From IMG/VR virus record IMGVR_UViG_2630968639_000005: 6,244 nucleotides of DNA; one strand, given 5' to 3'. Made by a program: the position numbers. This stretch comes from a virus. Lineage: Duplodnaviria > Heunggongvirae > Uroviricota > Caudoviricetes. Below are positions 1 through 3,000 of this stretch, one piece after another; the first letter of the stretch is position 1, and every line of letters starts with the position of its first letter.

Positions 1-3000
1 GATAGCGGGGAGTGGTGGAGCGATTTAGCCCCGGAATGGCTCCTCTGTTCTTCCAGTTCCTGACGGACGAGGACGTGACTGGCCGCCTGTATGCGCGAGG
101 TTACCGACTGCGGCCTGGGTTTTTTAAGTGACGTAAAATCGTGTTGAGGCCAACGCCCATAATGCGTGCAGTTGCCCGGCATCCAACGCCATTCATGGCC
201 ATATCAATGATTTTCTGGTGCGTACCGGGTTGAGAAGCGGTGTAAGTGAACTGCAGTTGCCATGTTTTACGGCAGTGAGAGCAGAGATAGCGCTGATGTC
301 CGGCAGTGCTTTTGCCGTTACGCACCACCCCGTCAGTAGCTGAACAGGAGGGACAGCTGATAGAAACAGAAGCCACTGGAGCACCTCAAAAACACCATCA
401 TACACTAAATCAGTAAGTTGGCAGCATCACCATCAAAGTTGTTAACCAACATACACTCTATCTGCGGCAAGAGTAGAACAGGTTATAAGAACACCATTCA
501 CAGTAGAGTTTCATCCTTTGCTGGTAAGGTGGTCAACGTCATTCATTTCCCAAACAAATATTCTGCTCTAATTGGCGTTCTGTTCTGTATACACTATTGA
601 CAAGTTCACAAACCTGAGAGGCAGCATCGAAAAGGTGGCATGCCTTATCCAGGCTGACGCATCCCACCAATAAAAAAGGCACCAGTATCGCTACCAGTGC
701 CCATTTCGCCGCCACTCGCGGTATTCTGTGTGTCCAGTGTTTTCGGCGCATGTCACCACCAACGCACAGCCCAAATCAGAACAGCGACCGCCACAAGGCG
801 AATTGCAAAGGCCGCAGCCCTTGTCAAATCAAGGCTCGCGGGAGTTTCCACTTCAATACCTTTCATAATGGACAACCTCAAAAAGAATCTTTTATACTTT
901 CCCACGAGGATTTTCTCCGTACTCACTACTCACAATTTCCTCTTTGACGTGAAAACTAAAAACCCCGGACTGTTCCAGCAGCCGGGGTTTTGTTTTTTTA
1001 TTTACTGCCCTGGGTGCGGCATCTGGCTATTTCATTCCTGGCTTTAGTGTCACCGCGACAGATACAACGAACCGTGTCACCCGCCAGCGTAGTGATGTAG
1101 GCCTCATCCGTTTTTTCCACCGAAATGCATGGCACATTTCCATCCCGGCAATACTCCACCTGGGCAGCAAGGTGAGTGTTGCGCGGGTAAAATTCCAGGC
1201 GATACATATTCCCCAGAACATGCACTTCTTCAACCTGGCGCCCATCTTCCGTTACCGTGATTTTTTTCAGCGCGTACATACGTACCTCCGTTCTTTCGTT
1301 TTTTGAGCAATAAAAAAGCCGCTCATGGCGGCCCTGTATGTTTTGCAAGCTATCGCTTCAATTGAAAATGTGGGCCGTCTTTAAGCGTCCGCCAGTCCCC
1401 GCCCCATTCGATGGCTGTTCCCAGCTCTGCGGCAGCCTGCTTAAATGCCTGCGCGATTTTCTCGTACAGAGGCCAGTCCCATGACACCTGGCTGCCAACC
1501 CAGGCAACAACATCCACCGCATCACCGGTCAGGTGGCGGCTGTTCATGGTCTGGCTTTTCCCTTCCGCGACCAGCTGTTTCTGGCGTTCTTTCGTGCGCA
1601 GCCCTTCCGTAATACCGAAATCAACCTCCGTCAGCTCCAGCGCACGGCGAACGACAGCAACCAGCTGTGGTTTAACGCCCTCCAGATTCTTTTCGCTGCG
1701 ACGACTGAATCTGAATTTACCCGACATATTCACCTCAATAATGGAAAGATTTTTGTGACGTTCCCGCGCGCGCGTATCACCAGCACGCAGAACAGCAGAT
1801 TAAAAAACACTTCCAGCCAGCCCGTTGCTAACGGGCGACCACACAGATAGCTGAGGGGCGCAAAGGCATACAGCAGCATCAGCAACCAGGCCAGCCATGA
1901 CATCAGCGGTTTATGTCTGGAATCACAGCGACGATAAAAAAAGAGCGTCAGCACGATAACCGTGCATAACGCCACATTCAGCAATCCGGGAAGGTTACTT
2001 AACATTGCCGCCTCCTCCACCCCGCAGGCGGGAGAACAAGCCGGACACCAGTGATGCGATATCCTGCTGGTGGATGAACGACAGAATCTTCACCGACACC
2101 ACGGATACCAGCACCGCACACAGCGCATCTGCCGATGTGCCGTCATAACCTGTTTTTGCCGCTATCCAGGCAGACAGCACACGCGCTCCCAGCACGCCGA
2201 CAATGAACGACACCAGAAAATGCGCCGCCACCCGCCAGGCTGAAAGCGCCTGCGGCATCGTTGCCACAAATAACGCCCCGGCGAACGCACCAAACACAAT
2301 CCCGAAATCCGTTCCGGTAAACAGCCCGAATACCGTCGCCCCGCCGAGCGCCGCTGCCGTACCGGAACCGGATAAGGGTTCAGACATAAATACCTCTCAA
2401 AATCAGCGTGATGGGAGTTTATACCAAGTTATAAAATTATGTGATTAAGTATCTTTTTGTGGTCCCATACAATAATCAGATGAACTACATGTGCTTAAAG
2501 AAATTAGTTCGTTAGTAGAGAAGGCCTTTTTAAACTCGGAATCACTCCACACATTCTCCTTATAATAGACCCTTATACTTTCACCAGTAGCATAATAATA
2601 CTTAGCCATTTCCATCATGGCATCGAAACCTTGTTTATGAGATCCAAAGACATCCACCTTACACATATTGTGAATGGGAAGAGTCACATTATCACGCTTT
2701 ATACCAATACAAAAAAACTGACTTTCCTTACCCCCGGATGTGTAAACTCCATATGATAAATTATTTATCTGAACATTACTAAAGTACTTATCATAATCAC
2801 TCATCACTGCATGACTTGTACCAGATAACAATGAAAGAGCAATTAAGGAATATTTTATTTTCCGTTTCATAAAACCTCTTATATACGCTAACAAGTTAAT
2901 CAACAAATCAAATAATAAACACATCATTTCAATAGCATCATTTTATTATTTCTTTTAACACACCTCTTGCATCATAAAATTCGGGTTCATAATAAGTGGC

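What the first reader, a model, noticed from the sequence alone, without database searches (positions are those of the whole stretch)
539..866. Unannotated pair: 37-aa single-TM peptide immediately followed by a 70-aa lipoprotein, between the terminator and IS1
A hand-found ORF (866-753, -; MKGIEVETPASLDLTRAAAFAIRLVAVAVLIWAVRWW) with a good SD ends 1 nt before the ATG of a 70-aa ORF with a textbook lipoprotein signal (…AILVPFLLVG|C). Tight stop-start spacing, an RBS, and a membrane-anchor-plus-lipobox combination are unlikely to all arise by chance. The pair could be a separated spanin-like couple, an entericidin-like or exclusion lipoprotein module, or a new small-protein system. It lies outside the late operon, after a bidirectional terminator, so it would need its own promoter.
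Basis: seen in the sequence. Interest (0 to 1): 0.45.

Follow-up and report, generated by a model that had tools for sequence, protein, structure and literature searches.

The report
Phage lysis lipoprotein and membrane peptide
Two tiny genes at the end of a prophage's cell-bursting gene set are real and conserved: the second encodes a very short outer-membrane lipoprotein that sits where related phages carry their outer-membrane-breaking 'spanin' genes but has no partner protein, and the first is a separate small membrane peptide that is found in front of either kind.

Summary
Both ORFs are conserved and under purifying selection. RefSeq already annotates identical copies as hypothetical proteins. 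The two are not an obligate pair.

**Lipoprotein (phrog_7528, usually 60 aa).**
- It follows the endolysin gene directly in most relatives, behind three endolysin types, in lambdoid and Mu-like phages.
- In matched E. coli and Yersinia cassettes it alternates with Rz/Rz1.
- A 2018 spanin survey listed the phiP27 copy as an o-spanin.
- The i-spanin that survey paired with it occurs only in phiP27. No other partner is encoded.
- The mature part is only 29-39 residues, with two conserved Cys.

**Membrane-peptide ORF (phrog_4493/1115).**
- It more often sits directly in front of Rz/Rz1.
- Its true start may be a conserved GTG 13 codons upstream, giving 50 aa.

The pair lies inside the Q-antiterminated late operon, so it needs no promoter of its own.

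Best reading: a minimal outer-membrane-disrupting lipoprotein with no partner, plus an independent accessory membrane peptide. Function is inferred from gene position only. A nucleotide-conserved, terminator-like hairpin inside the signal-peptide codons remains unexplained.

The parts
539..751 (-). Lipoprotein precursor ORF of 70 aa (phrog_7528 family). Signal peptide is codons 1-30 (751-662), lipobox L28-V-G-C31 with the Cys codon at 661-659, and a mature part of 39 aa with conserved Cys48 and a second Cys. This copy is a C-terminal variant of the usual 60-aa form.
   Evidence: pN/pS is 0.27. Divergent members keep the lipobox and two Cys. Present in 352 of 5,426 complete E. coli genomes.
753..866 (-). 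Small membrane-peptide ORF, 37 aa from the ATG at 866 (phrog_4493/phrog_1115 family). Its stop, TGA at 755-753, lies 1 nt before the lipoprotein ATG.
   Evidence: pN/pS is 0.46 and 0.29. The exact sequence occurs on at least 1,000 contigs.
867..905 (-). Possible N-terminal extension of the peptide ORF. The GTG at 905-903 would give a 50-aa product, (M)GKYKRFFLRLSI + MKGIEV.... GGAG lies at 918-915. The internal ATG at 866 has its own GAGG at 879-876, so two starts are possible.
   Evidence: An in-frame ATG or GTG is kept at -12/-13 codons in all lineages, and L172 has ATG at the same codon. pN/pS of the extension is 0.32.
668..702 (-). Terminator-like RNA hairpin inside the signal-peptide codons 17-27: GGGCACUGGUA-GCGA-UACUGGUGCC followed by UUUUUUAUU.
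   Evidence: -17.9 kcal/mol, z = -3.4. Synonymous variation here is the lowest in the gene (0.018 against 0.119, p = 2e-4). It is absent or altered in divergent members.
955..995 (.). Two-way intrinsic terminator between the 93-aa ORF and the peptide ORF. It travels together with the peptide ORF into other genomic contexts.
869..898 (+). Promoter-like site on the opposite strand (TGGACA-18 nt-TATACT). With the terminator at about 960-1000 it could give an antisense RNA of about 95 nt (905-1000, + strand). This is a lead only, because the site lies inside probable coding sequence.
   Evidence: No Rfam family matches.
998..1279 (-). 93-aa ORF (phrog_33497, unknown function) flanked by terminator hairpins. 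It is an insertion that separates the endolysin gene from the spanin position in this variant.
1350..1733 (-). M15-family endolysin gene. In most relatives the lipoprotein gene starts 14 nt after its stop.
1730..2387 (-). Two holin-family genes: PF16931 at 1995-2387 and PF05449 at 1730-2020.
1..432 (.). IS1 end, with InsA at 101-376 on the - strand. It is inserted about 105 nt downstream of the lipoprotein stop and cuts the late operon before the terminase genes.

Best explanation
The two ORFs are real late genes of a phiP27-like prophage, but they are two independent modules rather than a couple.

**The lipoprotein.** The 70-aa ORF belongs to a narrow family found in prophages of Enterobacterales. 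The precursor is usually 60 aa, with a long basic n-region, the lipobox LLVGC, and a mature helical peptide of about 29 aa with two conserved Cys. Its gene occupies the position in the lysis cassette that holds the spanin genes Rz/Rz1 in related phages.

Proposed mechanism:
1. It is transcribed late, by Q-antiterminated read-through.
2. It is exported, lipid-modified at Cys31 and sorted to the inner leaflet of the outer membrane. The +2 residue is Val, not Asp.
3. After holin and endolysin have acted, it performs or assists the last lysis step, breaking the outer membrane.
4. It does this without a phage-encoded partner that spans the periplasm. It would act either as a disulfide-linked amphipathic lipopeptide that destabilises the membrane directly, or through a host factor, much as colicin lysis proteins act through the phospholipase OmpLA.

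**The membrane peptide.** The upstream ORF (37 or 50 aa) is translationally coupled to whatever gene occupies the spanin position. It is an accessory small inner-membrane protein of the lysis region whose role is unknown.

**Shown:** coding status, conservation, gene position, alternation with Rz/Rz1, absence of a partner gene.

**Inferred:** lipid modification, outer-membrane location, a role in lysis, and the mode of action.
For: **Coding and conservation**
- The lipoprotein ORF is intact in 65 of 65 distinct loci, with pN/pS 0.27 in frame.
- A profile search of 1.84 billion representative proteins found 24 at E-value up to 0.001. Among the 18 retrieved, several divergent members (P0289, P0290, P0292, P0297) keep the lipobox and two Cys 8-10 residues apart even where the signal peptide differs; others are truncated or fused.

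**Position**
- The gene starts 14 nt after the M15 endolysin stop in 50 of 80 loci selected only by the endolysin.
- It overlaps (ATGA) the stop of GH108 endolysins in a Yersinia locus and in a Mu-like phage, and of the antirepressor-like gene that precedes it in an Enterobacter locus.
- It follows a third type of gene in the endolysin position, behind a lambda-S-type holin.

**Alternation with spanins**
- L178 has the same M15 endolysin followed directly by Rz/Rz1.
- L167 has the window's exact layout (endolysin, terminator, 93-aa ORF, terminator, small membrane-peptide ORF) followed by Rz/Rz1 instead of the lipoprotein.
- Y. enterocolitica L185 has holins, GH108 endolysin, the 37-aa ORF, Rz, DUF4222 and KilA-N. 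Y. kristensenii L089 has the same genes with the lipoprotein in place of the 37-aa ORF plus Rz.

**No partner**
- None of 92 lipoprotein loci has a lambda-type Rz (checked over the whole fetched locus, up to about 4 kb each side), a second lipobox ORF or a recurrent i-spanin-like ORF (both checked from 2.5 kb upstream to 2 kb downstream, same strand).
- In the whole phiP27 genome only one annotated gene carries another lipobox, L05, a 275-aa early gene; two further short lipobox-like ORFs (33 and 62 aa) also turned up in the scan.

**Prior work:** Kongari et al. 2018 list the phiP27 copy as an o-spanin.

**Late-operon position:**

**Mature peptide:** amphipathic in most members and predicted helical, at low confidence.
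Against: - No experiment links the family to lysis. The case rests on gene position.
- The mature domain of 29-39 aa cannot reach the inner membrane, and no mechanism is demonstrated.
- There is no sequence similarity to any spanin, colicin lysis protein or other characterised family.
- Five M15-endolysin loci carry neither the lipoprotein nor Rz within 1.5 kb downstream on the same strand, so the position can be empty.
- A terminator-like hairpin inside the gene would cut its own transcript unless it is antiterminated.
- In lambda, cargo genes such as bor also sit at the end of the lysis cassette.
- In the window, the prophage is cut by IS1 just downstream and may be defective.
Confidence: 0.55

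Rival explanations
1. The pair is a minimal two-component spanin. The 37/50-aa membrane peptide would be the inner-membrane subunit and the lipoprotein the outer-membrane subunit.
For: - The stop-1 nt-ATG junction suggests translational coupling.
- 18 of 80 endolysin-selected loci carry both ORFs.
- The combination is one membrane anchor plus one lipoprotein.
Against: - The lipoprotein occurs without any membrane-peptide ORF in 50 of 80 loci and in Yersinia, Enterobacter and Mu-like contexts.
- The same 37-aa ORF sits in front of complete Rz/Rz1 in O157-type prophages, and in front of an Rz-family gene in Y. enterocolitica, with the same junction.
- Relatives of the peptide also occur in myovirus baseplate modules.
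- The peptide has no periplasmic domain; its hydrophobic stretch runs to within 3 residues of the C-terminus.
Confidence: 0.08
2. The lipoprotein is a true o-spanin whose inner-membrane partner is not next to it. The partner could be a host protein or a distant phage gene.
For: - It sits in the spanin position, and its conserved periplasmic Cys resemble those of other o-spanins.
- Kongari et al. paired it with a 64-aa ORF in phiP27.
Against: - That 64-aa ORF starts with TTG, lies antisense to a 90-aa ORF, and is found only in phiP27 among 92 lipoprotein loci.
- The scan from 2.5 kb upstream to 2 kb downstream of the gene found no recurrent i-spanin-like ORF (single N-terminal membrane segment, 80-220 aa), and the whole-genome phiP27 scan, which looked for lipobox ORFs only, turned up no second spanin-type gene pair.
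- The lipoprotein moves between lambdoid and Mu-like genomes on its own.
Confidence: 0.15
3. The lipoprotein is cargo unrelated to lysis. It could be a superinfection-exclusion or surface-modifying lipoprotein like Bor, Cor or T5 Llp that merely rides at the end of the lysis cassette.
For: - Lambda bor lies in the equivalent region (own knowledge).
- T5 Llp is also a small lipoprotein with two Cys (own knowledge).
- Some related cassettes have neither the lipoprotein nor Rz within 1.5 kb downstream on the same strand.
Against: - It lies on the same strand as the late genes and is overlapped or tightly coupled to endolysin stops.
- It alternates with Rz/Rz1 rather than coexisting with them.
- No promoter of its own was detected.
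- It has no Pfam or PADLOC match.
Confidence: 0.17
4. The membrane-peptide ORF is the toxin of a type I toxin-antitoxin-like module, or an antisense-regulated small protein. It would move as a unit of terminator, antisense promoter and ORF. This can be true alongside the main explanation.
For: - A promoter-like site on the opposite strand scores 9-10 of 12, with the same spacing and the same distance from the ATG, in all 31 distinct upstream regions. These include the Klebsiella and Serratia baseplate contexts.
- A terminator-type hairpin with a U-run follows 35-105 nt downstream of the predicted start in the contexts examined, strong in five of six and weaker and imperfect in the O157 locus L098.
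- The product is a small hydrophobic peptide.
Against: - The promoter hexamers lie inside what is probably coding sequence (K-Y-K and L-S-I-M codons), which would explain their conservation.
- The predicted RNA would not cover the SD site or the ATG.
- No Rfam family matches.
- One promoter-like hit per kilobase is what chance predicts.
Confidence: 0.15
5. The 70-aa ORF is not a gene. Its conservation would reflect an RNA element (the terminator hairpin), with the ORF open by chance.
For: The hairpin plus U-run is invariant at the nucleotide level across genera and has the lowest synonymous variation in the ORF.
Against: - pN/pS is 0.27 in the annotated frame only.
- Third-codon positions vary most.
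- Members with a different signal-peptide sequence and no such hairpin keep the mature domain and both Cys.
- The ORF is intact in every locus.
Confidence: 0.03

Closest known systems
phiP27 'o-spanin' (GenBank AJ298298 positions 20706-20861), listed by Kongari et al. 2018, BMC Bioinformatics 19:326 (PMC6139136)
   Same: Same protein family: 73% identity over residues 1-64, same lipobox and Cys pattern, same place after the M15 endolysin. The window's ORF is a C-terminal variant of it.
   Different: The survey paired it with a 64-aa 'i-spanin' (20348-20542). That ORF is unique to phiP27 and antisense to another ORF, so the family as a whole has no i-spanin. The survey itself noted that the combined periplasmic length of 62 residues was the shortest of all two-component spanins. 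No experiment exists.
Lambda Rz1 and other o-spanins (Pfam PF06085; partner Rz, PF03245)
   Same: A small outer-membrane lipoprotein encoded just after the endolysin gene in the Q-dependent late operon, with periplasmic Cys. It occupies the same position and alternates with Rz/Rz1 in otherwise matching cassettes.
   Different: It is not embedded in, overlapping or adjacent to any Rz-like gene. The mature part is 29-39 aa and predicted helical, not proline-rich. No sequence match.
Colicin lysis proteins / bacteriocin release proteins (Pfam PF02402)
   Same: Precursors of 45-60 aa with an LxGC-type lipobox and mature lipopeptides of about 30 aa. These permeabilise the outer membrane without an inner-membrane partner (own knowledge). 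This is the closest model for how a lone short lipoprotein could work.
   Different: No sequence similarity. They are encoded in SOS-regulated colicin operons, not phage lysis cassettes, and their mature parts have no conserved Cys. OmpLA dependence is untested here.
Phage phiKT gp28 'disruptin' (bioRxiv 10.1101/515445)
   Same: A single small protein that replaces spanins for outer-membrane disruption in a phage without spanins.
   Different: gp28 is a cationic, non-lipidated, antimicrobial-peptide-like protein. The present mature peptide is lipid-anchored and net neutral to acidic.
T1 gp11 unimolecular spanin
   Same: A single lipoprotein gene in the spanin role.
   Different: gp11 has a C-terminal transmembrane domain and a periplasmic domain of about 100 aa that bridges both membranes. 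This protein has neither.
LambdaSo Lcc6 (65-aa membrane protein required for lysis; bioRxiv 10.1101/2024.01.23.576932)
   Same: A precedent for a small single-pass membrane protein of a lambdoid lysis region that acts as an extra lysis factor. It is a comparator for the 37/50-aa ORF.
   Different: No sequence comparison was possible. Lcc6 acts at the holin step, and nothing is known for the present peptide.

Membership tests
Two-component spanin, o-spanin subunit (Rz1 type) | N-terminal signal peptide with a lipobox and an invariant Cys | tested here: met
   VPFLLVG|C31. G30 and C31 are invariant in 32 aligned members and kept in divergent members. Actual lipid modification was not testable.
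Two-component spanin, o-spanin subunit (Rz1 type) | Outer-membrane sorting (no Asp at +2) | tested here: met
   The +2 residue is V, A or T in all 32 aligned members. Among the divergent members it is also S or G, and E in one. It is never D.
Two-component spanin, o-spanin subunit (Rz1 type) | Gene embedded in, overlapping or next to a gene for a type II inner-membrane protein with a periplasmic coiled coil (i-spanin) | tested here: not met
   92 loci have no recurrent i-spanin-like ORF from 2.5 kb upstream to 2 kb downstream on the same strand, and no Rz homologue anywhere in the fetched locus, up to about 4 kb each side. The published phiP27 'i-spanin' is unique to phiP27.
Two-component spanin, o-spanin subunit (Rz1 type) | Periplasmic domains together long enough to bridge inner and outer membrane | tested here: not met
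   The mature part is 29 aa, or 39 aa in the window. Even with the doubtful partner the total is 62 residues, the shortest in the survey.
Two-component spanin, o-spanin subunit (Rz1 type) | Periplasmic Cys available for disulfide-linked dimers | tested here: met
   Cys48 is nearly invariant, and a second Cys 8-10 residues on is kept (18 residues on in the window variant). Disulfide formation itself was not testable.
Two-component spanin, o-spanin subunit (Rz1 type) | Located in the lysis cassette downstream of the endolysin and interchangeable with known spanins | tested here: met
Two-component spanin, o-spanin subunit (Rz1 type) | Sequence match to Pfam Rz1 (PF06085), or complementation of an Rz/Rz1-null phage | tested here: not met
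   No Pfam hit at E-value up to 1. Complementation is not testable with these tools.
i-spanin (Rz, PF03245), considered for the 37/50-aa ORF | N-terminal transmembrane domain followed by a periplasmic coiled-coil domain that binds the o-spanin | tested here: not met
   The hydrophobic stretch is C-terminal, at residues about 17-34 of 37, and only RWW follows it. No Pfam hit. The ORF also occurs upstream of complete Rz/Rz1.
Unimolecular spanin (T1 gp11 type) | Lipoprotein signal plus a C-terminal transmembrane domain in one chain | tested here: not met
   No hydrophobic segment after the signal peptide.
Colicin lysis protein / bacteriocin release protein (PF02402) | Sequence membership, and a gene in an SOS-regulated colicin operon | tested here: not met
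   No Pfam hit, and the context is a phage late operon. Only the size and the lipobox type resemble this family.
Entericidin (EcnA/EcnB) | Tandem paralogous small lipoproteins with a Pfam Entericidin match | tested here: not met
   No Pfam hit. The first ORF has no lipobox and is unrelated to the second.
Exclusion or cargo lipoproteins (Bor, Cor, T5 Llp) | Sequence membership, and a gene with its own promoter or next to receptor-binding tail genes | tested here: not met
   No Pfam or PADLOC hit. The gene is on the same strand as endolysin genes and coupled to them. No promoter was found. Exclusion activity itself is not testable.
Type I toxin-antitoxin (for the 37/50-aa ORF) | A small hydrophobic toxin plus a cis-encoded antisense RNA with its own promoter and terminator | tested here: inconclusive
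   A conserved antisense promoter-like site and a terminator are present. The site lies in probable coding sequence, and no known RNA family matches.

The most novel reading that the evidence does not exclude
The phrog_7528 lipoprotein would be the founding member of a third kind of phage outer-membrane disruptor, beside spanins and disruptins. It would be a lipid-anchored, disulfide-bonded peptide of about 30 residues that finishes lysis with no inner-membrane partner, perhaps by recruiting a host factor as colicin lysis proteins do. In the main clade its expression would be gated by an intrinsic terminator embedded in its own signal-peptide codons, so that only Q-modified polymerase can complete the mRNA.
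Probability: 0.3. Interest if true: 0.65.

Novelty: new variant of a known kind. Interest (0 to 1): 0.45.

Why it matters
Roughly one phage in seven that infects Gram-negative bacteria has no recognisable spanin, and only one alternative (the disruptin) has been characterised.

Here a lipoprotein family already filed as an 'o-spanin' turns out to have no i-spanin. It nevertheless swaps cleanly with Rz/Rz1 in matched cassettes. It is present in about 6.5% of complete E. coli genomes. Among its carriers are prophages that encode Stx2e, Stx2k and pertussis-like toxins.

If it breaks the outer membrane alone, three things follow:
- It adds a new minimal mechanism for the last step of lysis.
- It bears on how toxin is released from these toxin-converting phages.
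- It offers a very small lytic part for engineering.

The work also corrects a published spanin assignment, the frame of phiP27 gene L32, and probably the start codon of a very widespread small ORF.

Tried and rejected
**Searches that returned nothing useful**
- Pfam, NCBIfam and PADLOC gave no hits for either small ORF or for the 93-aa ORF. PHROGs gave only families of unknown function.
- PDB sequence search matched only designed helical repeat proteins, which is spurious.
- tblastn of the 37-aa peptide against phage genomes returned nothing, probably because the low-complexity filter masks the hydrophobic stretch. A DNA search replaced it.
- Rfam found no family for the hairpin or for the candidate antisense RNA.

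**Uninformative results**
- AlphaFold2 gave a single long helix at pLDDT 69 for the 70-aa protein, informative only for helical tendency. No fold search was run on so poor a model.

**Conclusions I revised**
- I first concluded, from long-form sequences alone, that the 11 codons upstream of the ATG were non-coding (pN/pS 2.6 with very few changes). Comparison across lineages showed a conserved ATG/GTG start and pN/pS 0.32, so I revised that conclusion.
- My first guess that the toxin genes were LT-II was wrong. They are pertussis-toxin-like.

**Readings rejected**
- A spurious lipoprotein ORF created by a terminator.
- A fragment of a larger disrupted gene.

**Also checked**
- The IS1 junction is absent from all complete E. 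coli genomes searched, so the window's source strain is not in that collection.
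Full report
**Setting.** The window is the late region of a lambdoid, phiP27-like prophage, with all genes on the - strand.
- The genes, in order:
  - DUF1367, YbcO and a DUF1133/Q-like antiterminator (4051-5491)
  - a pertussis-toxin-like A subunit (2938-3663) and B subunit (2445-2870)
  - two holin-family genes (1995-2387 PF16931; 1730-2020 PF05449)
  - an M15 endolysin (1350-1733)
  - a terminator hairpin
  - a 93-aa ORF (998-1279)
  - a strong two-way terminator (about 955-995)
  - the two small ORFs of the finding
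  - an IS1 end (1 to about 432)
- In intact relatives such as E. coli STEC383, the terminase, portal and head genes follow about 760 nt downstream on the same strand, and the antiterminator lies upstream.

**Observation.**
- Every sequence statement checks out: ATG at 866 with GAGG 9 nt upstream, TGA at 755-753, one base, then the ATG at 751 of a 70-codon ORF with the lipobox L-V-G-C31.
- The terminator folds at -21.8 kcal/mol, z = -5.1.
- 'Unannotated' does not hold for public data. Seven complete E. coli genomes carry the region 433-1000 at 99.6-100% identity (six are identical), and in the one inspected, STEC383, PGAP annotates both ORFs as hypothetical proteins.

**The lipoprotein is a real, narrowly distributed protein.**
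- A homology search found 113 clusters in E. coli, Salmonella, Citrobacter, Yersinia and Enterobacter. Typical length is 60 aa. A Lelliottia copy turned up in the genome scan.
- In the alignment, G30 and C31 are invariant, KWALVAILVPFLLVGC is nearly invariant, and Cys48 is conserved, with a second Cys 8-10 residues later.
- The ORF is intact in all 65 distinct loci first examined.
- Third-codon positions vary most: 22, 17 and 37 variable sites at positions 1, 2 and 3.
- pN/pS is 0.27 in frame, against 0.97 and 1.5 in the other sense frames.
- An exhaustive profile search of 1.84 billion representative proteins found only 24 at E-value up to 0.001. Among those retrieved, several divergent members with a different signal peptide still keep the lipobox and both Cys.
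- The gene is present in 352 of 5,426 complete E. coli genomes.
- The window's copy is a C-terminal variant of 70 aa, with its second Cys at residue 66.
- PHROGs places it in phrog_7528, of unknown function. Pfam, NCBIfam, PADLOC and PDB give nothing.

**Position: the spanin slot.**
- Its upstream neighbour varies, but it is most often an endolysin.
  - The gene starts 14 nt after the M15 endolysin stop.
  - It overlaps (ATGA) the stop of GH108 endolysins in Yersinia kristensenii and in a Mu-like phage, and of the antirepressor-like gene that precedes it in Enterobacter.
  - It follows a third type of gene in the endolysin position, behind a lambda-S-type holin.
- I fetched 80 loci using only the M15 endolysin as bait:
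  - 50 have the lipoprotein directly adjacent
  - 18 have a small membrane-peptide ORF followed by the lipoprotein
  - 5 have the lipoprotein further away
  - 7 lack it
- Two of those seven are natural swaps.
  - L178 has Rz/Rz1 directly after the endolysin.
  - L167 has the window's exact layout (endolysin, terminator, 93-aa ORF, terminator, small membrane-peptide ORF ending in RWW, stop, 1 nt, ATG), but followed by Rz/Rz1.
- A second swap occurs in Yersinia.
  - L185 has holins, GH108 endolysin, the 37-aa ORF, Rz, DUF4222 and KilA-N.
  - L089 has the same genes with the lipoprotein in place of the 37-aa ORF plus Rz.
- None of 92 lipoprotein loci has a lambda-type Rz (checked over the whole fetched locus, up to about 4 kb each side), another lipobox ORF or a recurrent single-N-terminal-TM ORF of 80-220 aa (both checked from 2.5 kb upstream to 2 kb downstream, same strand).
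- In the complete phiP27 genome the only other lipobox ORF that coincides with an annotated gene is L05, a 275-aa early gene; two short unannotated ORFs (33 and 62 aa) also passed the permissive filter.

**Prior knowledge.**
- Kongari et al. 2018 (PMC6139136) list phiP27 as having a 'separated' two-component spanin: an i-spanin at 20348-20542 (64 aa) and an o-spanin at 20706-20861 (51 aa). Both are singleton families. Their combined periplasmic length of 62 residues is the shortest in the survey.
- That o-spanin is this lipoprotein family.
- The 'i-spanin' is a TTG-initiated ORF antisense to a 90-aa ORF. It occurs in no other lipoprotein locus, so it is very probably not a partner.
- GenBank's phiP27 L32 is annotated in a different frame from the conserved lipoprotein ORF.

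**The membrane-peptide ORF is a separate module.**
- It belongs to phrog_4493/phrog_1115, of unknown function. The family has 37- to 60-aa forms in E. coli, Salmonella, Yersinia, Cronobacter, Klebsiella and Serratia.
- The exact window sequence is on at least 1,000 contigs.
- An 86%-identical copy is listed in more than 2,500 index blocks of the public assembly collection. In the four O157-type prophage places inspected it lies between lysozyme R and Rz, with the same stop-1 nt-ATG junction.
- In Salmonella the 60-aa form precedes Rz by 10 nt.
- In Klebsiella and Serratia it lies in a myovirus baseplate module.
- pN/pS is 0.46 for the short form and 0.29 for the long form.
- An in-frame ATG or GTG is kept 12-13 codons upstream in every lineage. 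In the window this is the GTG at 905, and L172 has ATG at that codon. An SD-like site precedes it, and pN/pS of the extension is 0.32.
- The product may therefore be 50 aa, possibly with two starts.
- The peptide's hydrophobic stretch is C-terminal and leaves no periplasmic domain. It is therefore not an i-spanin.

**Expression.**
- No sigma-70-like promoter was found on the coding strand between the terminator and the ORFs.
- Because the structural genes lie downstream on the same strand, Q-antiterminated late transcription must cross this region. That Q-modified polymerase ignores intrinsic terminators is established knowledge for lambdoid phages.

**An unexplained RNA feature.**
- Codons 17-27 of the lipoprotein gene encode GGGCACUGGUA-GCGA-UACUGGUGCC followed by UUUUUUAUU. 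This has the shape of an intrinsic terminator (-17.9 kcal/mol, z = -3.4).
- It is nearly invariant at the nucleotide level in Escherichia, Citrobacter, Salmonella, Lelliottia, Yersinia and Enterobacter. The only changes are GCGA to GCAA (both GNRA loops) and CCU to CCC, which adds a base pair. Flanking synonymous sites differ.
- Synonymous variation is the lowest of the gene there: 0.018 against 0.119, Mann-Whitney p = 2e-4. The rare codons GUA and AUA are fixed.
- Divergent members have a different hairpin without a U-run, or none. The element is therefore specific to one clade and is not what keeps the ORF open.

**A weaker lead.**
- A promoter-like site on the opposite strand (869-898) is conserved in all 31 distinct upstream regions. 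A terminator-type hairpin follows 35-105 nt downstream in each of the six contexts examined, though it is weak in the O157 locus L098. This suggests a 70-105-nt antisense RNA.
- The site lies in probable coding sequence, which could explain its conservation by itself.

**Mechanism.**
- I commit to the lipoprotein being the outer-membrane-disruption component of these cassettes, acting without a periplasm-spanning partner.
- It is too short to reach the inner membrane. It is predicted helical (low confidence) and amphipathic in most members, and it carries two Cys.
- The nearest working models are the roughly 30-residue colicin lysis lipoproteins and, more loosely, the phiKT disruptin. It is a member of neither family.
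- The peptide ORF is an accessory membrane protein coupled to whatever fills the spanin slot. LambdaSo Lcc6 is a precedent for such factors.
- All functional statements are inferred from gene position. None is shown.

**Verdict.**
- Both genes were already annotated as hypothetical, and the lipoprotein was already catalogued as an o-spanin.
- New here:
  - the family has no i-spanin
  - it alternates cleanly with Rz/Rz1
  - the two ORFs are independent modules
  - the peptide's start is probably mis-called
  - a conserved terminator-like hairpin sits inside the signal-peptide codons

Noticed in passing
window 668-702 (- strand): A terminator-shaped hairpin plus U-run lies inside the lipoprotein signal-peptide codons. 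It is invariant at the nucleotide level across six genera, has the lowest synonymous variation in the gene, and keeps the rare codons GUA and AUA fixed. Divergent family members lack it.
   Followed up: partly
window 869-1000 (+ strand): A promoter-like site on the opposite strand (TGGACA-18 nt-TATACT), together with the two-way terminator, could give an antisense RNA of about 95 nt against the peptide ORF leader. The site is conserved in all 31 distinct upstream regions, including the Klebsiella and Serratia baseplate contexts, but it lies in probable coding sequence.
   Followed up: partly
window 867-905 (- strand): A conserved in-frame GTG or ATG lies 13 codons upstream of the annotated ATG of the 37-aa ORF. 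The widely annotated 37-aa product may really be 50 aa, or the gene may use two starts.
   Followed up: partly
window 998-1279 (- strand), with hairpins at 1315-1335 and 955-995: A 93-aa Cys-rich ORF (phrog_33497, unknown function) is bracketed by two terminator hairpins. It is inserted between the endolysin gene and the spanin position and is present in 12 of the loci examined.
   Followed up: no
window 2445-3663 (- strand): Pertussis-toxin-like AB toxin genes (PF02917 A subunit; a weak PF02918 match for the B subunit) lie between the Q-like antiterminator and the holins. This is the position where Stx genes sit in related prophages.
   Followed up: partly
L089 5988-7140 (Yersinia kristensenii): A heat-labile-enterotoxin-like A subunit and an LT-IIB-like B subunit are encoded a few genes downstream of the same lysis cassette in a Yersinia prophage.
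   Followed up: no
window 1-432: IS1 is inserted about 105 nt after the lipoprotein stop and cuts the late operon before the terminase genes. This junction is absent from all 5,426 complete E. coli genomes searched.
   Followed up: partly
L004 3670-3864 and 3952-4107 (phiP27, AJ298298 20348-20542 and 20630-20785): The published phiP27 'i-spanin' is a TTG-initiated ORF antisense to a 90-aa ORF and occurs only in phiP27. GenBank gene L32 is in a different frame from the conserved lipoprotein ORF.
   Followed up: yes
L167, about 430-565 nt after the endolysin stop: A non-homologous 45-aa membrane-peptide ORF (MVDFSKLIRELRLMIKQLPNWKFIMLWLVMFIASVGYLIGQIRWW) sits in the same place before Rz, with the same ...CGCTGGTGGTGAnATG junction. 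Small membrane-peptide ORFs ending in RWW recur just upstream of the spanin position.
   Followed up: no
lipoprotein residues 1-16 (window 704-751): The signal-peptide n-region is unusually long and basic (MxRKHWTHRxPRxAAK, with 5-6 positive charges and two His). It is conserved even in divergent members. No explanation is offered.
   Followed up: no
phage record PP818812.1, 20079-20258: A phage deposited as an Actinobacillus pleuropneumoniae phage carries an unannotated copy of the lipoprotein ORF at 75% identity.
   Followed up: no
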